A model generated the notes under the pieces. The model was given only the letters and a program-made list of their open reading frames with translations, was not told the origin of the DNA and ran no database searches. A stretch of 64,000 nt of DNA from a virus: positions 1 to 64,000 of IMG/VR virus record IMGVR_UViG_3300009448_000011. One strand, given 5' to 3'. Position 1 is the first letter of the stretch, and every line of letters starts with the position of its first letter. Shown piece after piece: positions 28,601-64,000 of this stretch. A program made the translations under genes and the position numbers.

Positions 28601-31600
28601 GGACAAACATCTATTAGTGCAGTATTTAAACAATTTGAAGTAGTAACAAATGACGTAGACGTACATGGTAAAAGAGTGTTATTTGACCAGAATATTTCTA
28701 ATAAAGTAAAAGCTAGATTAGAGAGTGTAGATAGAATACTGGGTCAAGTATGGACAAATATAAAATCTTTATGGGCCCCAGAACCTAAAGATACTATAAA
28801 AATAGTAGAATTTACTAAACAATTTAGAAAGCAAGAAGTTCTAGTACTTAAGGCTGCTGAAAAGGCTAAAATGGAAGGTTTTAGATTTGCACATAAAGCT
28901 AATACTTTAGATCCGTCTAAAGCTTCTTTAGATATGGTAGTAGGAAATGTAGATGAAAGTGTTGACTTATTAGATAAAGTTTTAGATTATAGTCATGCTG
29001 TTAAAAAAGATGGAATATCTTTAGAAAGTATGAATAGAGCAATAGATAGTGCGGGTATTCGAGATGTTACTGGCCAGTTAATGCGTAATTCAAAAAGATT
29101 TAGTGGCAATGTTAGAGCAGAAGGACTATTACAAGACACTAAGAGTTATTTTGCTGTTGCTGTATTTATGGGTTTAGCGTTAAATAATATGATGCAAAGT
29201 ACTAAAGGAACATCTATAGCTACTCAAGTAGGCTTTGCACTTTTTGGAGAAGATGAAGACCTAGCAGTTAAATTTGAAGCTAATAGATTTATCCCTACAG
29301 AAGTTTTAACAGTGGCTTTAAATAATGCTGGGATTGGTGTTAGTCAAACAGCAGTAAATTTTGTTACAGATTCTGCATTAATAGCAGGTACATATGGCTT
29401 AGGATATTCTGTAGCTAAAAGAATGACTACTGAAAATTATCTACCATATACTTTTGATATAGAAACTGTGCAAAAAATGGCACAAAGAGAAGCAATAGAA
29501 ATTGTAGATAAAGTAGGTAGATCAGTAGATAAAAGTATTATTACTAATATGGCCCCGGGTCATGATTCGATAATTAAAGTTAGAAAAACAGTATCAAATA
29601 CAGACAACATTCATTTTATTACAGAAACAATATTAACAAGAACTAATGAAGGATTTAAAACAGAAAGAATATTACAAAAATATGCAGAAAATGTTCCAAC
29701 TAGAGCGTTTATGTTTGGTGCTATTGCGTTATTAGCTACAAATGCGTTAAGAGAAGTAGCAGTATCTACGTTAACAGCTATGTCAGAATCCCCAGACGAT
29801 AAGATATATTTTGGAATGGTGGCAGGGTTAGGTTTGGGAGGATTGTTATTAGGGGCGTGGGCGGATAATAGTTATGTAGCTAAGACTGTAAAGCAAGGAA
29901 AAGAAGTAGCAAAAGCAAGGGGTCAAATTTTAGATGCTGGTAAAAACATATTTAAAACTAAAGCAGTTACAGGAGCTATAGCGGGTGCTTTTATTGGTGG
30001 AGCTTTTTGGATGGTAAACTCTGCATTAGATCCTGATGTAAAACAAAAAGGTTCACTAGATCCTTTAATAGCAGGTGTTGGGTTAGGGATAGGTGCAGGT
30101 ATATTTAAATCTAGTGCTGGATTAGGATTAGGAGTAGGTATAGTTGCTGCATCTGTTATGAGCGCTTTAAATTGGGCAGGAATAAGAGTAACTAAAATAG
30201 GAAGAGGAGGAAAAGAATTAGATCCTGAAAGTACTAAATTAGTAGCGCAATTATCTAGTTATTCAAGTGCGGTATTAGAAAAAGAAAATAATGATAATAC
30301 ATTTAGTGTAGGAATGTCTGCGTATGCGGCTCAATTTGGAGGAACTAAAACGTTAGCAACAAATATAGCTAGTGTAGGAGAAACGCAAGTAATAGCAAAA
30401 CAATCGCCATTACCTATATTACAATTTTTTGTAGCAGAAAAAATAGAAGGTAGAAGAGGAGAAGTTAAGGAAAGAACGGGACCTGATAGTGAAAGAACTA
30501 TTAGAAAATATAGTTTAGGTATTCAATCGGGAGCAATATTGGGAACATCTTTATCTGTAGAATTACCTATTGCGTATACGCCTGGAGAAGGATTTTTTGG
30601 ATTTACATATAATTCTGAAAATAATTTAATGGCTGTACCAAACTTTGCTATCAAAGTAGGGGTTTGGGCGGCAGCAGCCACAGCAGGAGTAGGTATTGTG
30701 TATAATACTGCGGGGTGGATGAGTAAACAAGTTTATAATTTAACAGGAGCACAAATGTTTAATGCAGCTTCTGCTAATTTTAATCAAGCCGCTGGAGATT
30801 TATTTTCTGCAAGTAGATTTGTAATGAATGCTTCAGAAAAAATAACTTCATTTTTCATTAGAACTAGTGTAAGCATTTTTTCTACATTACAGGGAACTGA
30901 TGCTCAAATGGCTTATGAATTATTTAAAAATTCTGTACCTAGAGCCACTCAAGCAGCAGATATGCTAAGAGAATTTAGTACTGCGGAACTAAGTGTAATG
31001 AGTCCAGGAGAGACTGCAAAATTAAATACTTTAGACAATGTAGATGGAGCTAAAGGATTATGGGGAGAAATTAAAGAAGGAGGAAAATTAAGATATGCAG
31101 ATCAAATTAAATATTTAGCAATAGGAGCGTTTCTGGGAGGAGTTGCAGGAAGTCTTACTAGTGATGTAGTTAAACATTTTAAATTAAAGTCAAGTATAGC
31201 TGCTAACGAAAGTCAAGAAACGTTATTAAAAATAGAAGATCAAGAAGAAAGAAGAAAAGCTATTTATCTTGCGATAGGAGGTTCTGCAGGAGGTATACTA
31301 AATTTAAATATTCGTAGTAGTATTCCTTTAATAAAAAGTTTTAGTAGAAATCCTTCCACAACTGTAATTGAATTTTTAAAAAGTAAAAATACTCATGCTG
31401 CTTCTATGGCAGAAGATATAGAAAGAACCATGACAAAAGTTGGGTCTAATATGTCAAATAATAAGTATGTTTCCATTGTTTTAAATAATAAAATTACAAA
31501 ATTTGTATTTAAAAATAGTGCTTTATTAAGTAAAAATAAATTAGGCGGAATATTTTTTGCAGCAACTATTTATAATTATGCCAAAACAAGCAGTGAGTTT

Positions 31601-34600
31601 GGTATAGCTCAAATGATGGATCGTCATATTGTATATGATAATAAAGGAAATGCTTATGATGATTATAATTTAAATACTAAAGGTAACTTTTTACATCATG
31701 CAGGAGTAGCAGGAATTTTAGGTTTAGGTACTACTGGAATTGCTTCTATAACTATATCTCCTAATAGAAATCAAAGACAAACATTAATTAATTTTGCTCA
31801 AAAAGAACTAGCAAATATACAAGGAATTAAAACTACAGGTGTACTAAATAAAATAAAAGTACAAGGAACTAATATACTATTTTCTGTGAGTAGGTGGGCC
31901 TCAGATAAAGAATCAACAACATTACTTAAAAGTTTATTAAATCTTAATAATGAATTTAAAGACTATGAAGAGTACTTAGAGGGAGTTCGGGGTAATCCTG
32001 CGGCAAAATTACCAACTCATTTAGAAAAAGTAGAAGATGTTTTAAAATTAAGACATGCTTTAGGAAAAGAAGAATTACAAGAGTTTATTGCTTTACAAAA
32101 TCAAAAAGCAAAAGGACTTCCTTTCGCAACAGAAGAAGAATCTACTTATAAAAAATTCTTAACAAATATAGATGAAAAATTAACTCAAGTTAATGGAAAG
32201 GGAATATCTAAATTAAATAATTTAGATAAAGGGTTTCAGCGTATTTCTTCTTTAACTTCTTTTAGTAAAAGAGCAACTGCCTTTTTAGTTGTAGGGTACT
32301 TAGTAAAGTTAGGAATAACTACGGTAGGTAATCAAGGGGGAGAAATAGGAAAAGATAGTTATTTAGATAGACTATATAACAAAGCTAATCAAGTAGGTAA
32401 AATAGGACAGCGTAGACAAGATGGAAGTATTGTCGGTTTAGAAGGGTTTATAAGCATAGGTGCAGATGCTTTACGTATAATAACTGGGAGAGATATTGCG
32501 GATTTAAATACTGTAGTCAGTAGTCTTGATGGAAAGATGATTAAGAGTACAGGACAAAAATTAAGAACAAATGCAAAAGGAATTGCTGATTTACAAAAAG
32601 GAGTAAAAGATTTATCAGAAATGTTAATTGTAGACAATCCTAATGCTTATTTAGCTACTTTTGATTTTGGGGGAAGAACATTACGCAATGATGATAAAGG
32701 ATTAACATCTTCTTCTTATTTTCAATTACAAGGGCCTGGGCAAGATATTTCTACAGCTACTTATTCAATGGCGTCTAAATTTATTTTTTCACAATATACA
32801 GGAGGACGAGGTAGACTTAGTGGCATTATTGATAAAGGGTTAGCTACTTTTGATAAAAATAATCCAGATACTTGGGATGTAGCAACAGTTAATATTAGAA
32901 ATGCAACTAGTATGATGGATGCAATGAAAAATGCTAGACAATATTCTAGAGACACTTCTGCCGCCTTAGCAGGAGATAGTTTAGCAAATATGATATTATC
33001 TTTACGTCAAGAAGCACTTGCACATATTGCGTGGCAACCAACAGATAGTCTTTATACTAATATGTTCTGGGAAAACTATGAAAAACTTAAAGTTAGAAAA
33101 AATCCTTCAAATGTTAATAAATTTTTAAACAAATTAGCCCGTAGTGAAAAAAGTGTATTAAATGAATTTGCTAAATTAATGGAAGAAGGTATTTTTGAAA
33201 ACTTTTTTACTAAATCAGCAATAACTAATGTAATATTTTTTACTGGTAGTGGTAAGCAACCGCCTCAAAGAGGTAATGCTCAATTCATGTCTACAGATAT
33301 TTCTCAGTTATGGTATCAAACACAAGATTTATCTGTTCAAGCAGAAATGTTTAAACAAAGTAGAATAGAACTATATGATCAATATTTCGATAAAGTAATT
33401 ATGCCACTTTCTAGTTCTGGCATTTTTGCTATAATTCCAGAGTGGATGAAAATAGCTGGAATAAGTTTTACTGTAATAGGGGTGTCTGCCGTAATTGTTA
33501 ATAGTATAGCGACTATAACAGAAAATAAAACTTTTAATCAAAGTACAAGTGAATTATTAGATATTTTTGGACGTGTCGAAAATACAATAGGGCCCAAAAT
33601 GAAGGCATATCCTAACGATACTAAAAAAATAATAAAAGAATTAAAAGAACATATAGCTCAGGGACAAAAATATAATTGGAATGTAGATGGACATATCGCT
33701 AAAGGAAGTTCAATAGTTCCTGGGTCTAATTCTGTAATAGGTTTATTAAATATTGGTCAAGAGGGCAAAGCACTTCATGTTCGTTTTGAAATTAATCCTT
33801 ACTTTGAAGCATTAGATGTAAAAGATAGTAATATTTTTATTAACACTTTAGAAACTAAAGGAGAGCACTTAAGAAATCTATTTACATATGTAGAAGACAC
33901 TTTAGATGAAAGTAATAAAACAATAGGAAGAACTCGTAAAAGTATTGCTTCTTCTTTATTAGACCATAGAGAAGTACAAAAATGGTTTAATAAAAATAGT
34001 ACTGGTAATATTATAGAAAGTGTTTATGATATATTCACTACAACACACACAATAATAAGTAAATCTGAATTTATAGGATCTGCTGTAACTAATTTTCAAG
34101 ACAAATTCAAACAAGGTTTAGATAGATTGTTTGATTTAAATGATATGAATAAAGTAAATCATCATTTATTACAAACAGTAATGGTAAATGGTGAAGAAAT
34201 GTTAGTAGCAGAACTATTAGATCCTGATTTTCATACAAGTGGAATATCTAATGCCGATGAATTTGGCCCTGCTACTTCTTTAGAATCAAGAAAACAAGTA
34301 TACATACAAAAATATCAAGAAGCCAAATTAAAGTTTCAAAAAGAAGTACAAGAAATTGTAGAACAAGAATATTCTAAAATTGCTTTTAAGGGTAAGGGTT
34401 CAACTTTAATAGACGATACTGCTCAAATTGCAGAAGCAAACCGAAAAGCTCTTATGGCTATAAAAACAAAAATGGTTGACCCTAGTAGCTCTATTGGAGC
34501 TGTTGTAAAAGGTGCAGGAATAATACAAGCTACTACTTTACTAGATCAACAAGCAACTATAAGCGAAGCAACAAAAGGTTCTCAAAGAAAATCAAATAAA

Positions 34601-36358
34601 AGTATTGTTAGAGATAATTCAGTTAAAGGAAATCCTATAGATACTTTTACAGACGATGTATGGGAAACTTTACATTATACGCGGCCTTTAGGTAATGTAG
34701 GTTTTTGGGATAATTTAGCTGCAGGAGGTAAAGGTTTAATAGTTGCCGGCTGTACTTTTTTTGATGTACTAAGTGGTGCAGATGTACTAGGTTCTTATTT
34801 AAGAGTAGCAGAAATACAAAGTAATCCGTACGCGACAGATTTAGATAAAGAAATGGCTAGTAAAGAGTTAGGAAGATCGTTACTAGCTTCGTTAATAGGG
34901 GTAGGACTGGGACTAGCAAGTAATAAATTGTTAGGAATATTTGGTAACGAAAAAGTAAGAAATTTTTTAACTAAACCTAGTAATATAGTGAAGAGTGCTT
35001 TAGGGTTAGTAACAGGAGGGTTAATAGGAGGGGCAGCGTGGAAAAGTATTATTGGACCAGGGTTGGATAAATTAGCCAAAAAAGGTTCTTCTAGTAATAT
35101 AGAAAATAGACTAAATAAAGGATTTGCTGACTTAGGGTTTACTGCAGGAGATTTCTTAGGTAAAGTTGCGAGCGCTCCTGTAATAGGGGCATATAATTTA
35201 GGAAATAAAATTGGAATTGGGAAAGAAGCGGCTTTTTTTACTGGAGGTTTTTCTGGAGGCTTTGTTTTAGGAAGTATAGTTGGAACAGGACTTGCTGCTT
35301 TTGGTTTATCAATAAGTTTACCTGTATTGGCTTTATCTACGGTAGGGGTGGGGTTAGCAGTAGGGGTTGCCGCAATATTTGGGGGCAAACAGATGACTAG
35401 TGGTATGTCATATGCTACTAAAGAATTTATGAAAATTCCTATTATAGGTCAATCTATAGGATTAACAGATCCCTACAGAGCCATAAGAAATCAAGAAAGA
35501 TTTAAACATAATTTTAAAGATAGTCCTTTCTTGTTAGGGTATGTTGGAGATATTGTTAATAGTAATTGGATGCAATTATTGTCTGCTGCAGAAAACCCAG
35601 GAGGCAGAGATACTGTTGCTTTATTATTTGGGGATGTATTGGGTCAAGGAGAAGAATATAATACTGGTTCTGCTTGGAAACAAAATGCAGCAGAGAGTTC
35701 TATAGGAGGCCCCCGACCTATTATTGATGAAGTAATTCAAAATGAATTACGTATTAGAGCGGAAGCTTATTCTGATGCAGTAATTGGGCGTTATAGTTGG
35801 GAGCAAATACTAGCACATGCAGATAATAGTAATGTAATTAAATCACAAGAAGCATTACAAAGAGCTGAAAAAGTTAAGATACAAGAAAAGGCTAGGGCTC
35901 AATTATTAAAAAGTGCTAAAGATGCAGGAGGCCCTACTGCTGCGCTTAAAACAGGTAATTCTAGAACAAGTGCAGTAACTCAACAACAATTAGCAAAAAT
36001 AGAACAAGTATATAATGATTTAGACACATATGGAAAACCTCATGTACAAGTAACTGCTGCAAGTGTAACAACACATAAATCTAAAACAAGTAATTCTGAT
36101 TTAAAAGCAGGAGATAAAGCCAAGGCTCAAACTATTAATCCAGGGGGTACTTTATTAGCCCCCATTACTAAAAATCATGTATATAAAACTAAAGTAGTAA
36201 TTAATAATAAAATGGCAGTAATTAATTTTAATAAAGAACAAGACCCCATGAACCCTATTTTATTAGCACAAGCAGAAGTTATGGGGGCTAATAAAGCAAA
36301 TTCACCTGATGTACAAACACAAGTGAATTCTTATAATGCTTATAAAAATGAAAATTAA
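25664..36358 (+). CDS. Giant (3564 aa) tape-measure/ejection-like virion protein with an N-proximal thermonuclease (SNase) domain
   Basis: IDADTF, VRLEGADSPE, DVYGR, LVREGLA, A..QKIGIF, P.DFRK motifs at about 26300-26810; many Gly/Ala-rich hydrophobic segments; helical Lys/Glu-rich spacers. Confidence 0.7.
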   Translation: MQNISNNSPEVFGPSFKSIETFGPSTKQFEDSKLVDFNNLKATKKDINVLNYNQEAINTSMSNIKTIISKTASIPKDIFSNLSFSNSNSNSNTTSLLSRVSRVPGEAKKILQRQGLEEEQARLVTIGALGSIGVATTIGGGVGLNQLIKNPAPALNVLKTITNSKVGKTGLIGTAAVAGLLLLNSKRGDAAEISQSIYAKDTSFEIDPAEFSSIDADTFYIKNKGKVRLEGADSPELSVYDKVHAKTNREKWEAKRAHEKKLKDVRSDHKRSKVDYNTQDQGNEARAVADKFIKSAQNINLTIESQDVYGRKVVSIANEKGELLSDRLVREGLAFTELPSSEHFDGSDAAYNRYNSMIEAYQQKIGIFAKEDFINPTDFRKGKVDPKIHGFKKRLETEIKSQEFKKQGLANNEYAFILSDEDTYFTLSASLGASAHYGASIESTLMKQAGYDSLANVVPYKGLAESLMEYNNTLLGNEPLSSWERFAAQAYDTGLSAGGVGNWLNRSVFIPKGWGRLYKDEIGALPSIAGIAGKILDESYLYYANMNPDAALLGQDYKSGLRRNVMEDKSGMFQTMFEDTTSFALAMAQSLGMYVAVTQPLEMLSANISKSYIDNTLQSVLLSNTARNGGILPIPKIPIGRIAAEYYFGSNLASYTHKEGGLASAVFEQKILKDTPETPAFFAHNGGEKSGYKVQLMIQRGRAETIMKGIFKPFLMDVINPFNASVSGSMQEPNSPTGARRINSYDQFNLAVDKLIKTISKPVDLDLKFKANESFSFRGIESIQVENISEDIKIAAAKSNKKEIHIKRSALVPVSDFSTLSSVYKSSTNKINTHLIQNNEELFKILTDKNGAALSAEVAHNIMFRNGGKKEALKLVPQIQKNKVDILFERKEQLRIAKQGLSRQLGVHADQLEITTTGTGSRYKTNIAAALQDILEMIPLNPLKWGLFNGSAEYADEFISVGQLFSFRDAADYTERVLTGQTSISAVFKQFEVVTNDVDVHGKRVLFDQNISNKVKARLESVDRILGQVWTNIKSLWAPEPKDTIKIVEFTKQFRKQEVLVLKAAEKAKMEGFRFAHKANTLDPSKASLDMVVGNVDESVDLLDKVLDYSHAVKKDGISLESMNRAIDSAGIRDVTGQLMRNSKRFSGNVRAEGLLQDTKSYFAVAVFMGLALNNMMQSTKGTSIATQVGFALFGEDEDLAVKFEANRFIPTEVLTVALNNAGIGVSQTAVNFVTDSALIAGTYGLGYSVAKRMTTENYLPYTFDIETVQKMAQREAIEIVDKVGRSVDKSIITNMAPGHDSIIKVRKTVSNTDNIHFITETILTRTNEGFKTERILQKYAENVPTRAFMFGAIALLATNALREVAVSTLTAMSESPDDKIYFGMVAGLGLGGLLLGAWADNSYVAKTVKQGKEVAKARGQILDAGKNIFKTKAVTGAIAGAFIGGAFWMVNSALDPDVKQKGSLDPLIAGVGLGIGAGIFKSSAGLGLGVGIVAASVMSALNWAGIRVTKIGRGGKELDPESTKLVAQLSSYSSAVLEKENNDNTFSVGMSAYAAQFGGTKTLATNIASVGETQVIAKQSPLPILQFFVAEKIEGRRGEVKERTGPDSERTIRKYSLGIQSGAILGTSLSVELPIAYTPGEGFFGFTYNSENNLMAVPNFAIKVGVWAAAATAGVGIVYNTAGWMSKQVYNLTGAQMFNAASANFNQAAGDLFSASRFVMNASEKITSFFIRTSVSIFSTLQGTDAQMAYELFKNSVPRATQAADMLREFSTAELSVMSPGETAKLNTLDNVDGAKGLWGEIKEGGKLRYADQIKYLAIGAFLGGVAGSLTSDVVKHFKLKSSIAANESQETLLKIEDQEERRKAIYLAIGGSAGGILNLNIRSSIPLIKSFSRNPSTTVIEFLKSKNTHAASMAEDIERTMTKVGSNMSNNKYVSIVLNNKITKFVFKNSALLSKNKLGGIFFAATIYNYAKTSSEFGIAQMMDRHIVYDNKGNAYDDYNLNTKGNFLHHAGVAGILGLGTTGIASITISPNRNQRQTLINFAQKELANIQGIKTTGVLNKIKVQGTNILFSVSRWASDKESTTLLKSLLNLNNEFKDYEEYLEGVRGNPAAKLPTHLEKVEDVLKLRHALGKEELQEFIALQNQKAKGLPFATEEESTYKKFLTNIDEKLTQVNGKGISKLNNLDKGFQRISSLTSFSKRATAFLVVGYLVKLGITTVGNQGGEIGKDSYLDRLYNKANQVGKIGQRRQDGSIVGLEGFISIGADALRIITGRDIADLNTVVSSLDGKMIKSTGQKLRTNAKGIADLQKGVKDLSEMLIVDNPNAYLATFDFGGRTLRNDDKGLTSSSYFQLQGPGQDISTATYSMASKFIFSQYTGGRGRLSGIIDKGLATFDKNNPDTWDVATVNIRNATSMMDAMKNARQYSRDTSAALAGDSLANMILSLRQEALAHIAWQPTDSLYTNMFWENYEKLKVRKNPSNVNKFLNKLARSEKSVLNEFAKLMEEGIFENFFTKSAITNVIFFTGSGKQPPQRGNAQFMSTDISQLWYQTQDLSVQAEMFKQSRIELYDQYFDKVIMPLSSSGIFAIIPEWMKIAGISFTVIGVSAVIVNSIATITENKTFNQSTSELLDIFGRVENTIGPKMKAYPNDTKKIIKELKEHIAQGQKYNWNVDGHIAKGSSIVPGSNSVIGLLNIGQEGKALHVRFEINPYFEALDVKDSNIFINTLETKGEHLRNLFTYVEDTLDESNKTIGRTRKSIASSLLDHREVQKWFNKNSTGNIIESVYDIFTTTHTIISKSEFIGSAVTNFQDKFKQGLDRLFDLNDMNKVNHHLLQTVMVNGEEMLVAELLDPDFHTSGISNADEFGPATSLESRKQVYIQKYQEAKLKFQKEVQEIVEQEYSKIAFKGKGSTLIDDTAQIAEANRKALMAIKTKMVDPSSSIGAVVKGAGIIQATTLLDQQATISEATKGSQRKSNKSIVRDNSVKGNPIDTFTDDVWETLHYTRPLGNVGFWDNLAAGGKGLIVAGCTFFDVLSGADVLGSYLRVAEIQSNPYATDLDKEMASKELGRSLLASLIGVGLGLASNKLLGIFGNEKVRNFLTKPSNIVKSALGLVTGGLIGGAAWKSIIGPGLDKLAKKGSSSNIENRLNKGFADLGFTAGDFLGKVASAPVIGAYNLGNKIGIGKEAAFFTGGFSGGFVLGSIVGTGLAAFGLSISLPVLALSTVGVGLAVGVAAIFGGKQMTSGMSYATKEFMKIPIIGQSIGLTDPYRAIRNQERFKHNFKDSPFLLGYVGDIVNSNWMQLLSAAENPGGRDTVALLFGDVLGQGEEYNTGSAWKQNAAESSIGGPRPIIDEVIQNELRIRAEAYSDAVIGRYSWEQILAHADNSNVIKSQEALQRAEKVKIQEKARAQLLKSAKDAGGPTAALKTGNSRTSAVTQQQLAKIEQVYNDLDTYGKPHVQVTAASVTTHKSKTSNSDLKAGDKAKAQTINPGGTLLAPITKNHVYKTKVVINNKMAVINFNKEQDPMNPILLAQAEVMGANKANSPDVQTQVNSYNAYKNEN

Positions 36359-55592: not shown

Positions 55593-56195
55593 TCACAAAA
55601 ATTTAAGAGACATATTAAAAATAAGTTTGGATTGTTGAAAAGGAAGATTAAGCAACAATTCTTTAAACAAATCGGCCCCAAAGTTTTGACTAGTGGCCTT
55701 AATAGATCTGATGAGAAGTTCACAAAAGTTCCCAACGCCAAACAAATTAACGCGATCAATATCAAATTTAACTTCTGCGTTATGGTAGTAGGCACTAGTA
55801 GAACAGCAAACAGAAGTAATATCAGCGATAACTTTGTTATTTGTGGGGGTAGTATACCAAAGATTGGAAATATGATTATCAGAAGGATTGTGATTTAAGT
55901 GATGAACTTCCACAGAACCTTTCAAAATCTTATGACCAAAATAGAGTTTTTTCCAACCTTTCCAGACATATAGAACTACTTGATGCATGCCCACAATTTG
56001 TTTTTTCTTGTTTGAGGCATGTAGTTTAAAGAAACAAGCATTTTTCAACAATTTAAACAAGGCTGGATTTTGGGTTTGAGTTAAAAACTTATAGCCATTT
56101 TTGTTAACAAAAAACCTAGCAGAAGGCAACAAAGTTTTAATTTTCTCTAATTTAACTTTGAGACTTTTTATACTTTGATTGTTAAATTGTTCCAT
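55593..56195 (-). CDS. Free-standing HNH endonuclease
   Basis: MHQVV...VEVHHLNHNPSDNHISNL...NN. Confidence 0.8.
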   Translation of the reverse strand: MEQFNNQSIKSLKVKLEKIKTLLPSARFFVNKNGYKFLTQTQNPALFKLLKNACFFKLHASNKKKQIVGMHQVVLYVWKGWKKLYFGHKILKGSVEVHHLNHNPSDNHISNLWYTTPTNNKVIADITSVCCSTSAYYHNAEVKFDIDRVNLFGVGNFCELLIRSIKATSQNFGADLFKELLLNLPFQQSKLIFNMSLKFL

Positions 56196-57780: not shown

Positions 57781-57810
57781 TTGACATACTAAGTTATGGT
57801 ATGTTATACT
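57781..57810 (+). promoter_or_regulatory. Sigma70-type promoter of the free-standing cassette
   Basis: TTGACA-18 nt-TATACT with extended TG. Confidence 0.7.
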
Positions 57811-57834: not shown

Positions 57835-58419
57835 ATGAATTTAGAAACTTGTCAAAACTTAAGCTTGATAATAGAAAAAGACCAAACAATTGAAGTAATT
57901 GAAATTTGGGCAAAAGTATTATATATAAGAAGAAGCAAAGGAAGAAATTCATTTTATTCGAAGAAAGGAATAACAAAAGAAACAGAAGGAATATTTTGTA
58001 ATAACTTAAAAGTTTCAGAAAATTATAAAAGCCTTTTTAAAAAATACCACCCCGATTTAAACAAAGGAAAAGAAAGTTATGTTGACATTTCAAAAAACAT
58101 TAATAGATGGAAAAACTTATTACTTGAGAGTGGACAAAGAGAGTTTGATCAACAATTATATACAGAGCTTATTGAGTTTTGTGGACCACTCACATCCATT
58201 TTCACTATTGGAACCAGAGCAAGTTTTATCGCAAAACAAACGTGCGGATCTATCAACATCCCTCAATTTAGTTCTGAACAGGAATTTGTTGAGTGGAAAG
58301 CAGCGCCAAAGCAAGTTGCTTCCAGGCAAGCGTTCCTTGATAGCCAACTTACTAGAGCTCAAATCATCAAAAAGTACGGTAAATCCTACTATGATTATGA
58401 AAGAGATCTTCCTTTTTAA
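57835..58419 (+). CDS. HPD/J-domain-like protein, cassette copy 1 (ORF1)
   Basis: Start MNLETCQ aligns with paralog MDIQTAA; YKSLFKKYHPDLN; ends ERDLPF. Confidence 0.7.
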   Translation: MNLETCQNLSLIIEKDQTIEVIEIWAKVLYIRRSKGRNSFYSKKGITKETEGIFCNNLKVSENYKSLFKKYHPDLNKGKESYVDISKNINRWKNLLLESGQREFDQQLYTELIEFCGPLTSIFTIGTRASFIAKQTCGSINIPQFSSEQEFVEWKAAPKQVASRQAFLDSQLTRAQIIKKYGKSYYDYERDLPF

Positions 58420-58825
58420 TCCTGACCAGGACACTATAATACGTCCTTACGGATTAGAAAAAAATCAAATGTATAGTAATTATATGCCAACGGGCAAAGA
58501 AAGCAAAAATTATTTAAGGAGTTACATTAATAAAGCAGAATCTTTAGGGATCAAAGTCAAAGCTTTCAATTTTAACATTTGCGGTCCTGTTGTCACACAA
58601 GAAGCTATTGAATTCGCCAATTACATGAATATTGCAATTAAAGAATTAAATGGAGTGAAAATACAAATCAATGTATTCACTTTGGAACAATTAATCAAAG
58701 AATTAATGACAAATATAAATGGAAACAAATGGTTCATCACTTCGCAAGTTCCAAGTATATGCTGGGGAAAAGATCAGGTACAATATTTAATTTCAGAAAA
58801 AAAAGCTATATTAACAGAAAGTTAA
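58079..58825 (+). CDS. PD-(D/E)XK nuclease-like protein, cassette copy 1 (ORF2), overlapping ORF1 by 341 nt
   Basis: E..I..YI, KRADLS, LLELKS; ATG preceded by AAGGA; homologous over its full length to 62545..63276. Confidence 0.65.
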   Translation: MLTFQKTLIDGKTYYLRVDKESLINNYIQSLLSFVDHSHPFSLLEPEQVLSQNKRADLSTSLNLVLNRNLLSGKQRQSKLLPGKRSLIANLLELKSSKSTVNPTMIMKEIFLFNPDQDTIIRPYGLEKNQMYSNYMPTGKESKNYLRSYINKAESLGIKVKAFNFNICGPVVTQEAIEFANYMNIAIKELNGVKIQINVFTLEQLIKELMTNINGNKWFITSQVPSICWGKDQVQYLISEKKAILTES

Positions 58826-58909
58826 CGTTCTGATTCATCTATTCCTTCAGACTTATCAATTTTATTCATTTCGCCCCAAAGACCATCTAAATTTTCTTCA
58901 TCAGAACCC

Positions 58910-59383
58910 TCATTGTTCTGATGATTCTTTTTTTTTCTCAACCTTACTAAAGTCTTCAGTTACAGTATTAAAAATTTTAATAATAGCTTGTTTTTCTTGT
59001 AGAAACTTCATTAAGGCACTTGTTAGTGAAGTATTACATTCACTAACAACATGCATAGAATATTCAAGATAAAGATCATCAGGGTTCAAAGAACTAAGAG
59101 AAAGAATACCTTCAAGACCAGGCTGAACACTCATAATAATATTAATCAAAAAATCGGGGCTTATAAAAAGAGGAACTTCTATAGGCAAAACAATACGAAT
59201 TAAATGATTAGATAAAGGATAAATTTGAGAAAAACCGTACGAAGTTTCTCCTTCAATTAACCACCCTTTATCTTCTAAAAATTTAACATTACAAAATTCT
59301 AAATATTGAAATAATATTTTATTATTACGAATAGAAAGCATATATTCGTAAGGATTAAAATTAGGATTAGGAGTAGAAAGCAT
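58910..59383 (-). CDS. Hypothetical protein (may extend to 58822 via an A9 run)
   Basis: 157-aa ORF; the alternative frame after the A9 run encodes an acidic tail ending at 58822. Confidence 0.55.
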   Translation of the reverse strand: MLSTPNPNFNPYEYMLSIRNNKILFQYLEFCNVKFLEDKGWLIEGETSYGFSQIYPLSNHLIRIVLPIEVPLFISPDFLINIIMSVQPGLEGILSLSSLNPDDLYLEYSMHVVSECNTSLTSALMKFLQEKQAIIKIFNTVTEDFSKVEKKKESSEQ

Positions 59384-59438: not shown

Positions 59439-60993
59439 TTACCTAAAATAGCAGAATGCCCCCATCAGAACGGTACTCCGTTTGGTGGCGGGATGAATGC
59501 GAGTGAGGCGACGATTGCCTGTCCTCCTTCCGAGATCTACCGATTGTCGGGATTGTCGGACAGGCATAAGGAGACGAACAAATTCATTGCTTATTCAATG
59601 TTTTATCTGAGTTTTTCTGGATAAAATTATGCTATCATAGTTTCATGATAGTTAGAGAAGCCAAGCTAAAATACGGTACAGCAGAGCAATATTCTGCCAT
59701 TGATAAAGCCATCCGAACAGCACAGTTCATTCGGAACAAAGCCGTTCGCTATTGGATGGACAATCAAGGTACGAGTAAAGCCGATCTGTACAGTATCTGC
59801 AAAGACTTGGCTAAAGAGTTTGACTTTGCTAAAAAGCTTAACTCCGCTGCTCGTCAGGCTAGTGCTGAACGTGCTTGGGTTGCTATCTCTAGCTTCTACA
59901 CCCGATGCAAAAAGCGGCTCACTCCAGTTGGGTCTCCCAACCATGGAAGTAAGACAAAACAAGGCGTAGGCAAGAAAGGTTTTCCAAAGTTTAAGAAACA
60001 TTGTCGTTCTGTTGAGTATAAGGTTTCAGGATGGAAACTATCGAAAGATTGCAAATCGATCGCATTCACTGATGGTTTTGAGATTGGAACATTATCGATA
60101 TTTTGCAACAATGAAACTCAAGAAGACTTGCATAGGCTGAAAATTAATCGTGTGCGGATCGTGCGGAGAGCAGACGGGTATTATGCCCAATTCTGTTTTG
60201 ATGCAGATCGTAAAGAGCAAGGGGAATATTCAGGCAATGTTGTCGGATTGGATTTAGGGTTGAAGTTTTTCACCAAAGACCAAAACGATAATGCTGTAAT
60301 ATATCCACAGTTCTTGAGAAAGGCCCAGATGCAACTCAAGAAAACTCAACGTCGATTAAGCAAGAAATTTGTGAAGGGTGCCAAACCCCAATCAAACAAC
60401 TACCACAAGGCGCAAAAACAACTAGGAAGAATTCATCTCAAAATTCAACGCCAGCGAAAAGATTGGGCGATAAAAGCCGCCCGAAACGTAGTGATATCTA
60501 ACGATGTCGTGGTGTATGAAAATTTGAAGATTGCGAACATGGTCAAAAATCATCATTTGGCTAAGTCAATTTCCGATGCTGGTTGGTATCAATACACTCA
60601 ATGGCTGGACTACTATGGCAAGATTTGGGATAAAGCAGTTGTGGCAGTATCGCCAAACTATACGTCTCAAGATTGCTCTAATTGCGGTCATCGAGTGAAA
60701 AAGTCTCTTAGTACCAGAACGCACTCATGCCCCAACTGCAAAATTGAAATTTGTCGCGATACGAATGCGGCTTTGAATATCTTGCACAAGGGATTGAACA
60801 TTCTTGGTGTTGAGTGGGACAAAAACAGTACTTCTGGGCAAGAAGGATCTGCCTCTGAGAATGAGGGAAAGCGCGGGGAGAGATGTACCTCTACAGTCGA
60901 TGAGTAATTAAAGACTGCAAGTAATTCTCTGTGAACCGCGAATAAGAATCCCCCGCTATATCGGTACTTCGATTAGCGGCGGGAGTATGTCAA
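59439..60993 (+). mobile_element. IS200/IS605-family (IS1341-like, TnpB-only) element
   Basis: Higher GC than flanks; follows TTGAT (59434-59438); left-end hairpin at about 59454-59500; right-end hairpin ending ...GGGAGTATGTCAA; no tnpA. Confidence 0.8.
59645..60907 (+). CDS. tnpB: TnpB RNA-guided endonuclease
   Basis: GLDLG (RuvC-I), VYENL (RuvC-II), TSQDCSNCG..CPNC Zn finger, RDTNAALN (RuvC-III) all intact. Confidence 0.95.
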   Translation: MIVREAKLKYGTAEQYSAIDKAIRTAQFIRNKAVRYWMDNQGTSKADLYSICKDLAKEFDFAKKLNSAARQASAERAWVAISSFYTRCKKRLTPVGSPNHGSKTKQGVGKKGFPKFKKHCRSVEYKVSGWKLSKDCKSIAFTDGFEIGTLSIFCNNETQEDLHRLKINRVRIVRRADGYYAQFCFDADRKEQGEYSGNVVGLDLGLKFFTKDQNDNAVIYPQFLRKAQMQLKKTQRRLSKKFVKGAKPQSNNYHKAQKQLGRIHLKIQRQRKDWAIKAARNVVISNDVVVYENLKIANMVKNHHLAKSISDAGWYQYTQWLDYYGKIWDKAVVAVSPNYTSQDCSNCGHRVKKSLSTRTHSCPNCKIEICRDTNAALNILHKGLNILGVEWDKNSTSGQEGSASENEGKRGERCTSTVDE

Positions 60994-61587: not shown

Positions 61588-62190
61588 TCATTTAGCGGCC
61601 CAACTAGTACCCAATTTACATTCTGCTTTAGAAGGAAAATCAGGCACTAATTTATGTAATAATTCATCCATTGCTTTTTTCATTCCTAATTCTTGTGCAG
61701 CAGCATATTCATAAGAAATATCTTGAAATTTATATTCAGGAATATAAACTTCCCCATCTTTTCTTACATTTACTACTTCACCTTGTCCAGGGATATAAGT
61801 AATACATTCATCATGAACTAAGCCTACGATATAGCCTGGAGAAGAATGTTGTTTATACTTAGTATTAAGCTGAGTAAAAAACTGATCGATATAATGTGCG
61901 GCGCGTTTTGTCATAATACTAGAAAGGCCTTGTATAATGGTATTACAACCTTTACGCATAGTAGCGCCATCATTTTCTATTCCGTGAGCATTACCTTCGC
62001 CAACGAAATAGCGTCTATTTGTTATAGGACATTGTACCCATTTTTGATATCTAGCCAAAGAACTAGTATTATCAATATAGACTTGCAATTCTGGAAATAA
62101 ATTAAAATAGTTTTTAAGAAGTTGTTCAGCAACCTTAATATCTATTTGAAGAGCGGTAGAAATTCTATTAGCACTTCCACCATAAATTAC
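61588..62190 (-). CDS. polA: Family A DNA polymerase, last exon
   Basis: VIYGGSA (end of motif B), YFNLFPEL, RRYF, NTIIQG, VHDEC (motif C), GTSW. Confidence 0.9.
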   Translation of the reverse strand, partial: VIYGGSANRISTALQIDIKVAEQLLKNYFNLFPELQVYIDNTSSLARYQKWVQCPITNRRYFVGEGNAHGIENDGATMRKGCNTIIQGLSSIMTKRAAHYIDQFFTQLNTKYKQHSSPGYIVGLVHDECITYIPGQGEVVNVRKDGEVYIPEYKFQDISYEYAAAQELGMKKAMDELLHKLVPDFPSKAECKLGTSWAAK

Positions 62191-62243
62191 CTTAAACCCT
62201 AAATTTTCATCTAGGTTTGGACTATACCTTTTAATGTAATTAT

Positions 62244-62273
62244 TTGACATACATTAAAACACCGTGTTATAAT
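62244..62273 (+). promoter_or_regulatory. Consensus sigma70 promoter antisense to the intron
   Basis: TTGACA-18 nt-TATAAT with extended TG; overlaps intron P8 and P3'. Confidence 0.8.
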
Positions 62274-62300
62274 TAGTATAACAAAGAAACATTTTAGATA

Positions 62301-62879
62301 ATGGACATACAAACAGCGGCGAATTTACAAGAATTAATAGAACAAGATCCTTTAATAGAATTAATCGAAATATGGGATAAAGTTTTATACATAAGAAAAG
62401 TAAAAGGCCGAGGAAGGTTTCATACTAAAAAAAATATTACTTTGTTAAAAAGTGGAATATACATCAATACAAAATATATACTCCAAGAATACAAAAGACT
62501 TCAAAAAAAATATCACCCTGATTTAAACAAAGGAAAAAAAAATTATGTTGAAATTTCAAAAAGCATTAATCAATGGAAAGACTTATTATTTGAATGTGAC
62601 GAAAGAGAACTCAATAGAACAGTATATCAGTTACTTATTACAACATGTGGACCGCTCACATCCATTTTCAGCATTGGAAAATCAGCAGACTTTATTTGGG
62701 GGCAAGAGGCCGGATTTCTCCACATCCCTAGATTTAATTCTGAACAGGAATTCAAGGAATGGAAAATTCCCTTTAGGAATTGGGCGGAAAAACTCGATGA
62801 TTGCCGATTGCCTAGAAGTAAAAGGAAGTTCTCAGATGTTGAGCACTACGGAGTTAATGAAAGAGATCTTCCTTTTTGA
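62301..62879 (+). CDS. HPD/J-domain-like protein, intron-borne cassette copy 2 (ORF1)
   Basis: IEIWDKVLYIRK, YKRLQKKYHPDLN, ends ERDLPF; paralog of 57835..58419. Confidence 0.7.
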   Translation: MDIQTAANLQELIEQDPLIELIEIWDKVLYIRKVKGRGRFHTKKNITLLKSGIYINTKYILQEYKRLQKKYHPDLNKGKKNYVEISKSINQWKDLLFECDERELNRTVYQLLITTCGPLTSIFSIGKSADFIWGQEAGFLHIPRFNSEQEFKEWKIPFRNWAEKLDDCRLPRSKRKFSDVEHYGVNERDLPF

Positions 62880-63276
62880 TGCAGCAGAAACTATTGTTCC
62901 TACTTATGATGTTTCTATGTCTGATTTTCAATCTCAATATTTTCCATTGGGGAAAGAAAGCAAGAATTATTTCAGAAGTTATGTGCAGGAAGCACTTAAT
63001 AGAGGCATCAAAGTGAAATCATTTACTTTTTGGTTTGCGGGCCCTCTAGTGTCTATTGAAGCCATCAAATTTTCTATTTATTGGAATCGCGTGATCAAAC
63101 AAATAGGTGGAATTCAAGTAGAAATCAAAGTTTTGTCTTTGGAACAATTAATTAATTACATCATTTCCAATATTCCAACAAAAAAATGGTATGTATTAAA
63201 TCAACATCCTTCTGTTTGTATGAGTAGAGCGCAGGTTGAAGCTCTAATAGAAGCTCAACTAGCCATTTTAGTATAA
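62545..63276 (+). CDS. PD-(D/E)XK nuclease-like protein, intron-borne cassette copy 2 (ORF2), candidate homing endonuclease
   Basis: ENSIEQYI, KRPDFS, CLEVKG; overlaps ORF1 by 335 nt. Confidence 0.65.
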   Translation: MLKFQKALINGKTYYLNVTKENSIEQYISYLLQHVDRSHPFSALENQQTLFGGKRPDFSTSLDLILNRNSRNGKFPLGIGRKNSMIADCLEVKGSSQMLSTTELMKEIFLFDAAETIVPTYDVSMSDFQSQYFPLGKESKNYFRSYVQEALNRGIKVKSFTFWFAGPLVSIEAIKFSIYWNRVIKQIGGIQVEIKVLSLEQLINYIISNIPTKKWYVLNQHPSVCMSRAQVEALIEAQLAILV

Positions 63277-63303
63277 TCTTTTAATATCTAATTATCTTTA
63301 AGT

Positions 63304-63336
63304 CGCCTTGTACATTAATGTATTTAGGCGTTTTTT
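63304..63336 (+). terminator. Intrinsic terminator of the antisense cassette
   Basis: CGCCT-TGTACATTAATGTATTT-AGGCG followed by TTTTTT, about 27 nt after the ORF2 stop. Confidence 0.7.
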
Positions 63337-63474
63337 ATTATGTATTCTTAAAAGTCTCTGAACCATTTTATAAACTTTCATTTATAGCTGGCTGCTGATT
63401 GACATATAGTATTTTTTAAACTACTTAGTGTTCCAGCAATTGAGTGTTTTTTACTTCACCATAATTTACAATTT

Positions 63475-63738
63475 AGTGAAGCCGCAGACTTTACCACGGT
63501 CTCTTCTTGTCCATCCATTCATATCTTTTTTAGCTTCTTTAATAACATTCCATTTAGGAACAGTAGCTAATTCAGGGTACATTCCAATAGCCGAAACTAC
63601 ATGAAGATCCCCGTCAGGATTAGGATATGTTTCTTTTGTATGTGGATTAATAAGAAAGGGATTATGCACTTCGGCATCGAAAAACGCATTAATCATTCTC
63701 TCTATTTTTGCTATACAAGCAATAGCTCTTACTTCTTG
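63475..63738 (-). CDS. polA: Family A DNA polymerase, internal exon (88 aa)
   Basis: QEVRAIA (end of motif A), GDLH, RDRGKVCGFT (start of motif B). Confidence 0.88.
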
Positions 63739-64000
63739 CAATATAGTTTTATTCTATACTGGCACTACTCTTCACCATCTCTATTAAGTACAGGTGTTTT
63801 ACGTCAGTGCTCTACTCTTGCCCAATTAATATAATAGAATAATAGTTCTAATTAATTTGCTAGATCGGGATTAGTTTACTATCACTTTCCCCGAATTGGT
63901 AAAATATTTTTTATACTATTTCTAATATAAACGACCCTTTTTTATTGTATTTATTTGTTTGACATTCAGCCATATAAGAGATACAATAAAAAAAAGACAA
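63739..64000 (-). mobile_element. Second group I intron in DNA polymerase motif A (3' part; 5' end outside the window)
   Basis: P AAUUCGGGGAA (63887-63897), Q AAUCCCGAUC (63863-63872), R GUAGAGCACUG (about 63804-63815), P3 UUUUAC/GUAAAA, P8 CACC/GGUG, S AAGAGUAGUGCC (63761-63772), P9 hairpin, terminal G before CAA GAA GTA AGA. Confidence 0.8.
63959..63987 (+). promoter_or_regulatory. Sigma70-type promoter antisense to the second intron
   Basis: TTGACA-17 nt-TACAAT inside a long intron hairpin, pointing out of the window. Confidence 0.55.

What the first reader, a model, noticed from the sequence alone, without database searches (positions are those of the whole stretch)
62545..62879. Conserved ~335-nt dual-coding overlap: J-domain-like protein over a PD-(D/E)XK nuclease core
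Seen: in both cassette copies (58079-58419 and 62545-62879), two frames stay stop-free for more than 110 codons in very AT-rich DNA. Both translations are conserved between the diverged copies (ORF1: CGPLTSIFxIG, IPxFxSEQEFxEWK, ERDLPF; ORF2: GKTYYL, HPFS, KRxD, LExK, MKEIFLF). ORF2 starts at the same position in both, at an ATG with AAGGA upstream, directly after the HPDLNKGK codons of ORF1. The putative catalytic residues of ORF2 (E, (P/A)D, ExK) lie entirely inside the overlap. Inference: the overlap locks a nuclease to a partner that may recruit host DnaK via HPD (chaperone, inhibitor or antitoxin-like). A +1 slip on the A-rich run (GGAAAAAAAAATTATG in copy 2) could alternatively give an ORF1-ORF2 fusion.
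Basis: partly seen in the sequence, partly recalled or inferred. Interest (0 to 1): 0.85.

Follow-up and report, generated by a model that had tools for sequence, protein, structure and literature searches.

The report
Two overlapping genes in mobile cassette
A small self-promoted gene cassette, present four times in this phage, encodes a chaperone-helper-like protein and a DNA-cutting enzyme from the same ~340 bases read in two frames, and the evidence that both frames are kept by selection is strong.

Summary
The window is the first 64 kb of a 105.7-kb AT-rich, cyanophage-like contig. It carries four diverged cassettes, two fully in the window. In each, ORF2 lies in the +1 frame of ORF1 and overlaps it by 335-404 nt.

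- **Both frames are open by selection.** If either protein is kept and its codons resampled, the other frame should hold 5-13 stops. It holds none in all four copies, while the third frame holds 15-18.
- **ORF1's stop is fixed.** It falls at the same ORF2 alignment column in every copy.
- **The overlap recurs elsewhere.** A fifth cassette from other metagenome contigs (P0034/P0001) can be co-encoded in the same register over 120 codons.
- **ORF2 is a nuclease that needs the overlap.** It folds confidently as one PD-(D/E)XK-type nuclease domain, and its E21, D57 and E91-x-K93 all lie in the overlap, so it cannot start at MKEIFLF.
- **ORF1 is J-domain-like.** It has an N-terminal alpha/beta domain, a helical hairpin with invariant HPD, and a poorly modelled E/R/A/G/W-rich tail.

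The first ~135 nt show constraint in both frames. In the remaining ~200 nt ORF2 dominates, but ORF1's frame stays open with a coding-like composition.

The cassettes lie antisense in probable group I introns of the polymerase and an ATPase gene, so they look like homing-type elements. DnaK recruitment, ORF1-ORF2 binding and expression are untested. The scan had noted this cassette before.

The parts
62244..62273 (+). Copy 2 promoter, TTGACA-18-TATAAT with TG extension (12/12)
   Evidence: the equivalent near-consensus promoters lie at 57781-57810 (copy 1) and 63959-63987 (copy 3), and copy 4 has TTGACT-17-TATAAT
62301..62879 (+). Copy 2 ORF1, 192 aa: N-terminal alpha/beta domain, J-domain-like helices with HPD at residues 72-74, and a charged tail ending DLPF
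62545..63276 (+). Copy 2 ORF2, 243 aa, +1 frame: PD-(D/E)XK-type nuclease (E21, D57, E91, K93)
62545..62679 (+). Overlap part A: ORF1 J helices III-IV over ORF2 N-terminal hairpin and helix alpha1; both frames constrained
   Evidence: same codon given same residue is 0.68 (ORF2) and 0.83 (ORF1), against 0.54 and 0.59 in the single-coding parts; both parts are modelled at pLDDT above about 80
62680..62879 (+). Overlap part B: ORF1 tail over the ORF2 catalytic core (D57, E91-x-K93); ORF2 dominates, ORF1 is kept open with a coding-like composition
63304..63336 (+). Hairpin plus T-run after copy 2 ORF2 (possible terminator, read by eye; not flagged by the scan)
   Evidence: sequence; one search lists only the copy 1 terminator
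57781..57810 (+). Copy 1 promoter, TTGACA-18-TATACT (11/12)
57835..58419 (+). Copy 1 ORF1 (an alternative ATG lies at 57796)
58079..58825 (+). Copy 1 ORF2, 248 aa; the overlap with ORF1 is 58079-58419 (341 nt)
58898..58924 (+). Copy 1 terminator-like hairpin with T-run
63475..63738 (-). Polymerase exon 2, from motif A (QEVR...) to motif B (...KVCGFT), flanked by the interruptions that hold cassettes 3 and 2
62191..63474 (-). Probable group I intron 2 of the polymerase gene, carrying cassette 2 on the opposite strand. P1 pairs exon CUUCACU with intron GGUGAAG (U.G at the splice site), and the intron ends in G
   Evidence: read from the sequence; Rfam gives no hit
61588..62190 (-). Polymerase exon 3 (VIYGGS... 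to the stop)

Best explanation
This is a real, selection-maintained dual-coding region inside a compact, self-promoted, roughly 1-kb two-gene cassette that behaves like a homing-type mobile element. One sigma70-type promoter gives one mRNA. Ribosomes that start at ORF1 make a ~190-aa protein with three parts: a small alpha/beta domain, a J-domain-like hairpin with invariant HPD, and a charged, sequence-variable tail ending in G-x-x-P-F. Other ribosomes start internally, in the +1 frame, at ORF2's own AUG. That AUG lies just after the HPD codons in copies 1 and 2, and at the conserved upstream MNT start in copies 3 and 4. They make a 243-268-aa PD-(D/E)XK-type endonuclease whose helix alpha1 glutamate, beta2 aspartate and beta3 E-x-K are all encoded in the overlap. 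Shown: both frames are open, conserved and co-encoded in five cassettes; the ORF2 N-terminal half is part of one fold; ORF1's frame distorts ORF2's codon choice. Inferred: the nuclease cuts cassette-less alleles of the polymerase and ATPase genes and so spreads the cassette and its host introns; ORF1 is an accessory factor that couples the nuclease to host Hsp70/DnaK; the overlap saves space in an intron loop, keeps the two genes together, and lets ORF1 translation hold down nuclease translation.
For: Open frames: (0 stops against 5-13 expected in each of 8 tests; the third frame has 15-18). Four paralogues share the same register and the same ORF1 stop column. ORF1 family: 20 members of 169-210 aa, 95-135 residues after HPD, 18 of 20 ending P-F/W, and none truncated within the 104-343 aa range searched. 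Independent cassette: P0034 and P0001 can be co-encoded at +1 over 120 codons in runs 1-3, 6-96 and 98-120; the longest run in shuffled controls is 7. Six further ORF1/short-ORF2 pairs are compatible at the ORF1 stop. ORF2 N-terminal half is real: AF2 pLDDT 89.5, pTM 0.85, one domain. VIA-align top hits are nearly all PD-(D/E)XK nucleases, Z 5-7.7, spanning residues 3-216. D57, E91 and K93 are invariant in all seven full-length members, and E21 in the five close ones. P0001, P0006 and P0012 lack the internal Met. The substitution pattern pos3>pos1>pos2 follows ORF2. Second-frame constraint: synonymous conservation is raised in part A. In part B, ORF2's K/E/Q codons end in G 34 times out of 59, against 6 of 116 downstream (P=2e-14, and true in each copy). 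ORF2 third-position G is 33% against 9%. Cassette autonomy: promoters and hairpins. Mobile context: antisense insertion splits the phrog_1297 ATPase at profile position 119 and the polymerase at motifs A and B. The exon joins restore the motifs, with U at the exon end, G at the intron end and P1 pairings. The Microcystis phage polymerase gene is uninterrupted at these sites.
Against: There is no expression or protein evidence. In part B, ORF2's synonymous sites are not conserved (0.40 against 0.54), ORF1 tail identity is only 27%, and ORF1's first codon position is the most variable. The tail's sequence is therefore barely constrained, and only its openness, end point and composition are kept. 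The fold matches are of middling strength (Z<8), no Pfam nuclease family matches, and the DnaJ scores lie below Pfam's gathering score. The four copies are paralogues and so not independent. DNA of relatives could not be fetched. Rfam finds no group I intron. Shine-Dalgarno support for the ORF2 starts is weak.
Confidence: 0.75

Rival explanations
1. Programmed +1 ribosomal frameshifting joins the two frames. The slip would occur either early, on the A-rich run, giving a J-domain-nuclease fusion, or at ORF1's shifty stop (CCU UUU UGA/UAA, where tRNA-Phe can re-pair at +1), giving ORF1 plus the ORF2 C-terminal half.
For: ORF2 is in the +1 frame in all copies. All four copies end ORF1 with C-C-(U/C)-U-U-U-U-(A/G)-A, a prfB-like slippery stop. 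Copy 2 has an A9 run before the ORF2 ATG.
Against: The A-run is absent from copies 1, 3 and 4. Every copy keeps an in-frame ATG for ORF2. A fusion at either site would leave no reason to keep 110 or more codons open in both frames. Three of 20 ORF1 relatives end in P-W, which cannot slip. The ORF2 C-terminal half alone is not a complete fold. No in-frame fused homologue exists among 18 family hits in 1.84 billion representatives; the longest hit is 318 aa. The UUU before the stop is also explained by ORF2's conserved hydrophobic L/P-F codons.
Confidence: 0.1
2. Only ORF2, and ORF1 up to the end of its J-like domain, matter as proteins. The ORF1 tail would be a passenger kept open for a translational reason, such as ribosome traffic that masks or unmasks the ORF2 start, or termination next to the internal AUG (M105) to couple synthesis of a short ORF2 form.
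For: Tail identity is 27%, with no synonymous suppression in ORF2 part B and ORF1 pos1 the most variable. AF2 gives the tail pLDDT 40-65. ORF1's stop lies 18 nt after a conserved in-frame ATG of ORF2 in all four copies. Gene callers start ORF2 there in nine or more relatives.
Against: The tail shows a composition typical of coding first positions (G 33% at ORF1 pos1) and an E/R/A/G/D/W-rich make-up in each copy despite sequence turnover. A conserved G-x-x-P-F/W end occurs in 18 of 20 relatives. Masking the ORF2 start would need only a few codons of overlap. P0001, P0006 and P0012 lack the internal Met.
Confidence: 0.12
3. Artefact or chance: a single gene broken by an assembly indel, or a stop-free second frame that is a by-product of ORF2's residues.
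For: Single metagenome source. Gene callers annotate ORF2 mostly as a 140-aa stub.
Against: The layout is the same in four diverged copies (41-53% nucleotide differences) and in separately assembled contigs. An indel gives a junction, not 110 or more codons open in two frames. Resampling that keeps the residues predicts 5-13 stops.
Confidence: 0.02

Closest known systems
Rz/Rz1 spanin genes of phage lambda and similar embedded gene pairs (my own knowledge)
   Same: Two proteins are read from the same strand of a dsDNA phage in frames offset by +1. Both are functional and co-inherited.
   Different: Rz1 is wholly embedded and the pair acts in lysis. Here the overlap is partial (335-404 nt), it joins a J-like protein to a nuclease, over ~135 nt both frames encode confidently folded segments, and the unit is multi-copy and mobile.
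Free-standing and intron-borne phage homing endonuclease genes: T4 seg/mob genes (own knowledge) and I-PfoP3I in the cyanophage Pf-WMP3 DNA polymerase group I intron (PMC3428280, seen)
   Same: Small nuclease genes sit in or beside conserved sites of replication genes, often in DNA polymerase introns, and occur in several copies per genome.
   Different: Those are single-gene GIY-YIG or HNH enzymes in sense orientation. This one is a two-gene overlapping operon with its own promoter, antisense to the host gene, with a PD-(D/E)XK-type nuclease and a J-like partner.
I-Ssp6803I, the PD-(D/E)XK homing endonuclease of a cyanobacterial tRNA intron (own knowledge)
   Same: A restriction-enzyme-like PD-(D/E)XK fold used for intron homing in the cyanobacterial world.
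   Different: No sequence relation was detected and the enzyme did not appear among the fold hits listed. I-Ssp6803I has no partner gene and no overlap.
Antisense homing endonuclease genes in nuclear group I introns (PMC9548176)
   Same: The endonuclease gene lies on the strand opposite to the intron and host gene.
   Different: Those are eukaryotic rDNA introns with His-Cys box enzymes and spliceosomal introns, with no second overlapping gene.
Phage- and virus-encoded J-domain proteins: RB43 Rki and polyomavirus T antigens (own knowledge; a small-t-antigen cluster was a weak Atlas neighbour)
   Same: A viral protein carries the HPD hairpin that engages host Hsp70.
   Different: Here helix I seems to be replaced by a beta-rich N-terminal domain, Pfam scores are below threshold, and the gene is physically overlapped with a nuclease gene.
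IS3/IS1 orfA-orfB overlaps with programmed frameshifting (own knowledge)
   Same: A mobile element with two overlapping frames on one transcript.
   Different: Those overlaps are short, use a -1 shift at a conserved slippery motif, and yield a fusion transposase. Here no conserved slippery site exists at the start of the overlap and ORF2 has its own start.

Membership tests
Same-strand overlapping (dual-coding) genes | Both frames open far longer than expected, given the other frame's protein | tested here: met
   0 stops against 4.9-13.2 expected, P<=0.0005, in all four copies and both directions
Same-strand overlapping (dual-coding) genes | The arrangement is conserved in diverged homologues | tested here: met
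   four paralogues, a fifth cassette (P0034/P0001) co-encodable over 120 codons, and 20 ORF1 relatives of full length
Same-strand overlapping (dual-coding) genes | Reduced synonymous change, or codon distortion, imposed by the second frame | tested here: met
   Part A shows raised synonymous identity. Part B shows no synonymous suppression but a strong codon distortion: G-ending K/E/Q codons 34/59 against 6/116, P=2e-14
Same-strand overlapping (dual-coding) genes | Both products are made | not testable with these tools
   no RNA run holds the sequence; no proteomics available
J-domain (Pfam PF00226 DnaJ) | HPD tripeptide in the loop between helices II and III | tested here: met
   invariant in 20/20; AF2 helices 60-70 and 80-98 flank it
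J-domain (Pfam PF00226 DnaJ) | Score at or above Pfam's gathering cut-off (27.8 bits) | tested here: not met
   22.1 and 24.4 bits for the window copies; 13/20 relatives match at E<=0.01, best 2.4e-5; the database's precomputed Pfam column lists PF00226 for one relative, P0026
J-domain (Pfam PF00226 DnaJ) | Four-helix J fold including helix I | tested here: inconclusive
   Best fold hits are J-domains but weak: Z 5.3, and 2y4t with Z 5.2, rmsd 2.0 over 48 residues; Foldseek 5nro_B 36% identity over 47 columns. The region before helix II is beta-rich
J-domain (Pfam PF00226 DnaJ) | Stimulates Hsp70/DnaK ATPase | not testable with these tools
   needs biochemistry
PD-(D/E)XK nuclease superfamily | alpha-beta-beta-beta-alpha-beta core fold | tested here: met
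   AF2 order H21-32, E44-46, E58-60, E84-92, H101-108, E156-166. Most of the top 30 VIA-align hits are PD-(D/E)XK enzymes, Z 5.0-7.7, and Foldseek's top hits are also restriction enzymes. Each match is modest on its own
PD-(D/E)XK nuclease superfamily | Catalytic D ... (D/E)-x-K on beta2/beta3, plus the helix alpha1 acidic residue | tested here: met
   D57, E91 and K93 are invariant in all seven full-length members, including the distant P0012, and E21 in the five close ones. Their placement on beta2/beta3 is read from DSSP
PD-(D/E)XK nuclease superfamily | Sequence match to a curated PDDEXK family | tested here: not met
   no Pfam or PHROG family; the Atlas gives only sub-threshold neighbours
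Homing endonuclease element | Sits in an intron, or at a conserved site of an essential gene that is uninterrupted in relatives | tested here: met
   polymerase motifs A and B and ATPase profile position 119 are interrupted, and the MaMV-DC polymerase gene is continuous there
Homing endonuclease element | Site-specific cleavage of the empty allele, and copying into it | not testable with these tools
   no cassette-less variant was seen in the one DNA run; an assay is needed
Group I intron (host of copies 2-4) | P1 with U.G at the 5' splice site, terminal G, and exon ligation that restores the frame | tested here: met
   read: CUUCACU/GGUGAAG (polymerase intron 2), GUGCU/GGCAC (ATPase), CGGCU/GGUCG (polymerase intron 1, distal). 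The joins give DYSA-QEVR, KVCGFT-VIYGG and QASA-YELIL
Group I intron (host of copies 2-4) | Recognisable catalytic core (P3-P9) | tested here: inconclusive
   no Rfam hit at the gathering score or at E<=1; the 1-kb inserts may defeat the model
Programmed +1 frameshift | Conserved slippery site, and no independent start for the downstream frame | tested here: not met
   the A-run occurs only in copy 2, and an ATG for ORF2 is present in every copy

The most novel reading that the evidence does not exclude
ORF1 is an obligatory Hsp70-coupled regulator of a new family of homing endonucleases. Its HPD hairpin recruits host DnaK, and its composition-constrained tail, encoded on top of the nuclease's own active-site codons, holds or releases the nuclease. 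The overlap would then be the device that makes regulator and enzyme inseparable as the cassette hops between introns. This would be the first chaperone-gated homing system, and a rare case in which two folded protein segments share about 135 nt.
Probability: 0.25. Interest if true: 0.85.

Novelty: new variant of a known kind. Interest (0 to 1): 0.72.

Why it matters
Long same-strand overlaps in which both products are conserved are rare in large dsDNA phages, and gene callers miss them. Here ORF2 is annotated in public collections mostly as a 140-aa stub that lacks its catalytic half. The case gives five diverged natural replicates for studying how two proteins share sequence: one part is doubly constrained, and in the other one frame keeps only openness and composition. 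It also defines a small, previously unnamed nuclease family (18 representatives in 1.84 billion) tied to a J-like partner. If the link to Hsp70 is real, it would be a new way for a selfish DNA element to control a dangerous enzyme.

Tried and rejected
- **DNA of relatives could not be obtained.** I therefore tested co-encodability at the protein level instead.
- **Phage GenBank records hold no relative of either ORF**.
- **Complex prediction of ORF2 with ORF1 gave no verdict**: score 0.01, controls not run. This is not evidence either way.
- **No RNA holder was listed.** The only run is a groundwater DNA metagenome that is probably the source. Laying its contigs showed no cassette-less form and only the paralogue cross-match.
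- **Rfam gave no group I intron.** The only hit was a chance match of an sRNA model to the copy 4 terminator.
- **Pfam, PHROGs and the ESM Atlas gave no family for ORF2**.
- **A first reading was dropped.** I first took the polymerase and ATPase to be protein-level 'genes in pieces'. The 29-aa first exon, the lack of start codons and the U/G splice rules made splicing the better reading.
- **Codon-usage likeness did not settle which frame is older.** It suggested ORF1's frame looks more native than ORF2's inside the overlap. I take this as codon distortion of ORF2, not as proof of ancestry.
- **RNA folding around the ORF2 starts showed little structure**, but no more than shuffled controls.
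- **Literature searches found no description** of a J-domain partner or an overlapping pair in homing elements.

Full report
**What is there.** The window is the first 64 kb of a 105,687-nt viral contig of about 30% GC. At the stated coordinates two + strand ORFs overlap. ORF1 is 62301-62879 (192 aa) and ORF2 is 62545-63276 (243 aa), with ORF2 in the +1 frame and 335 nt shared. The diverged copy is at 57835-58419 and 58079-58825, with 341 nt shared. Searching the whole contig found two more copies beyond the window: 64015-64587 with 64199/64241-64987, and 81508-82098 with 81695-82501. They have the same register and overlaps of 347-404 nt.

**Is it more than chance?** I kept the residues of one protein, redrew its codons from this genome's codon usage, and counted stops in the other frame.
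- The expectation is 10.6-13.2 stops in ORF1's frame and 4.9-8.2 in ORF2's frame. None is observed in any of the four copies, and at most 1 in 2,000 resamples was open.
- The third frame carries 15-18 stops, as expected.
- ORF1's stop lies at the same column of the ORF2 alignment in all four copies, although the copies differ at 34-53% of nucleotides, depending on codon position, in the overlap.

**Relatives.**
- An exhaustive profile search found only 18 ORF2 relatives among 1.84 billion representatives. Most are recorded as ~140-aa proteins that begin at the Met near ORF1's stop, which is what a gene caller produces when it forbids long overlaps.
- Three full-length relatives (P0001, P0006, P0012) lack that Met and start upstream.
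- ORF1 has 20 close relatives of 169-210 aa. HPD is invariant, 95-135 residues follow it, and 18 of 20 end in P-F or P-W. None stops early, although proteins as short as 104 aa were in range.
- Relatives' DNA could not be fetched, so I asked whether recorded protein pairs could be written on one DNA in the +1 register.
- P0034 (ORF1 type) and P0001 (ORF2 type) come from separate JGI contigs. They are co-encodable over 120 codons with only two or three breaks, in runs of 3, 91 and 23 codons. Shuffled controls never exceed 7.
- This is an independent fifth cassette. Its ORF2 is about 34% identical to copy 2, and it has the same overlap.
- Six more ORF1/short-ORF2 pairs are compatible at the ORF1 stop, and for those whose contig sizes I checked the sizes agree.

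**What the two proteins are: ORF2.**
- With an 18-row alignment it folds at mean pLDDT 89.5 and pTM 0.85 as one domain. The order is helix 21-32, strands 44-46, 58-60 and 84-92, helix 101-108, then further strands at 156-166 and 190-198.
- Foldseek's best, though weak, hits are restriction enzymes.
- The Foldseek-independent search is dominated by PD-(D/E)XK nucleases: AF1548, NucS, FokI cleavage domain, BspD6I, Can2, EcoRII, McrC, Card1, SgrAI, NucC and Shedu. Z is 5.0-7.7 and the matches span residues 3-216.
- D57, E91 and K93 are invariant in all seven full-length members, including the distant P0012, and E21 in the five close ones. They sit where the superfamily's catalytic residues sit, and all four lie in the overlap.
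- The part after MKEIFLF cannot form the fold alone. No curated family matches.

**What the two proteins are: ORF1.**
- It folds confidently only for residues 1-100 (a helix, four strands, then two helices flanking HPD) and moderately to about residue 125. The last ~65 residues are modelled below pLDDT 65.
- Pfam DnaJ matches at E=3e-5 but below the gathering score, and 13 of 20 relatives match at E<=0.01.
- J-domains are the best fold neighbours, but weakly.
- I call it J-domain-like. Whether it acts on DnaK is untested.

**How the two frames share the sequence.** The overlap has two parts.
- *Part A, the first ~135 nt.* It encodes ORF1's helices III-IV and ORF2's N-terminal hairpin and helix alpha1. 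Identical residues keep identical codons more often than in the single-coding parts: 0.83 against 0.59 for ORF1, and 0.68 against 0.54 for ORF2. This is the signature of double constraint, and both segments are confidently modelled.
- *Part B, the remaining ~200 nt.* It encodes ORF2's catalytic core and ORF1's tail. The substitution pattern follows ORF2 (third position fastest), ORF1 tail identity is only 27%, and ORF2's synonymous sites are not conserved (0.40).
- ORF1's frame is still not neutral in part B. ORF2's third positions, which are ORF1's first positions, are 33% G there against 9% downstream. Lys, Glu and Gln use G-ending codons 34 times out of 59, against 6 of 116 downstream (P=2e-14). 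This holds in each copy separately.
- The resulting tail is rich in E, R, A, G, D and W and ends in a conserved G-x-x-P-F/W.

So the tail is kept open, kept to length and kept in composition, but not in sequence. That fits a disordered or loosely helical charged tail.

**Context.**
- Each cassette has a near-consensus sigma70-type promoter just upstream of ORF1 (12/12, 11/11/… matches as listed: 12/12 for copy 2, 11/12 for copies 1 and 3, plus TTGACT-17-TATAAT read by eye for copy 4) and a hairpin with a T-run after ORF2.
- All four lie on the + strand among minus-strand genes.
- Copy 4 separates two ORFs that match one phage ATPase family at profile positions 14-119 and 119-332.
- The polymerase resembles that of Microcystis phages, where an exonuclease gene is followed by a 320-aa polymerase gene. 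Here the polymerase gene is interrupted in motif A by copy 3 and in motif B by copy 2.
Each interruption can be removed so that the 5' exon ends in U, the intervening sequence ends in G, and the motifs are restored in frame (DYSA-QEVR, KVCGFT-VIYGG, QASA-YELIL).
- Each 5' exon end can also pair with a nearby guide sequence with a U.G pair at the splice site, for example CUUCACU with GGUGAAG.
- The first polymerase exon would encode only 29 residues and exon 2 has no proper start, so splicing is the better reading. Rfam does not detect the cores, so the introns are probable, not proven.
- Copy 1 lies between two genes with no sign of an intron.

The pattern is several diverged copies, own promoters, insertion at the most conserved codons of replication genes, and relatives that lack the insertions. 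This is the pattern of homing endonuclease elements.

**Mechanism, and what is inferred.**
- *Shown:* two conserved frames, a nuclease fold that needs the overlap, a J-like partner, and an autonomous transcription-unit layout.
- *Inferred:* independent internal initiation of ORF2. Its own ATG is kept in every copy, at one of two conserved positions, in unstructured A/U-rich RNA, with weak or no Shine-Dalgarno.
- *Inferred:* homing activity of ORF2.
- *Inferred:* an accessory, possibly DnaK-linked, role of ORF1.
- *Inferred:* the benefits of the overlap, namely a short insert in an intron loop, co-inheritance, and low nuclease translation because ORF1 ribosomes run over the ORF2 start.

**Rivals.**
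- *A frameshift fusion is unlikely.* The A-run is not conserved. A fusion at either end would not need two long open frames. Some relatives end in P-W, which cannot slip. No fused homologue exists.
- *A purely regulatory reason for the open tail* remains possible, but it does not explain the tail's composition and conserved end.
- *Assembly error or chance* is excluded.

**Limits.** There are no expression data. The complex prediction gave no verdict. The fold matches are of middling strength. The four copies are paralogues. Only protein-level evidence is available for other genomes.

Noticed in passing
window 59645-60907 (+): A TnpB/IS605 OrfB-type gene (Pfam OrfB_IS605 and Cas12f1-like TNB domain) in a locally GC-richer stretch between cassette 1 and the polymerase gene. 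This would be a second kind of mobile nuclease in the same neighbourhood.
   Followed up: partly
window 55593-56195 (-): A 200-aa ORF with an HNH_3 endonuclease motif just below Pfam's cut-off, possibly a further free-standing homing nuclease.
   Followed up: no
window 61588-62190, 63475-63738; contig about 65012-65100 (-): The polymerase gene appears to be in three exons, interrupted in motif A and motif B. The first exon encodes only about 29 residues. The exonuclease part is a separate gene, as in Microcystis phage MaMV-DC.
   Followed up: partly
L009:16403-17218 and L009:18624-18992 (contig 80403-81218, 82624-82992, - strand): An AAA-type ATPase (phrog_1297) is split exactly at profile position 119 by cassette 4. 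The join QASA-YELIL obeys the U/G splice rules.
   Followed up: partly
L009:1210-1551 (contig 65210-65551, -): A DUF4326 ORF sits between the exonuclease gene and the first polymerase exon.
   Followed up: no
window 25664-36358 (+): A single 3,564-codon ORF, preceded by several ORFs of 1,000-1,700 codons. This is an unusually large virion- or injection-type gene block.
   Followed up: no
window 58156-58434 (-): A 92-codon antisense ORF lies inside the copy 1 overlap. It is not conserved in copy 2 (only 42 codons there), so it is probably chance.
   Followed up: partly
P0040, P0041 (262 and 308 aa, other metagenomes): Distant ORF1 relatives keep the N-terminal domain and the KYHPD motif but have longer, different C-terminal parts. 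The distant ORF2 relative P0012 begins MN.NN in the register expected from ORF1's NEYK codons, which hints that the overlap is older than the close family.
   Followed up: partly
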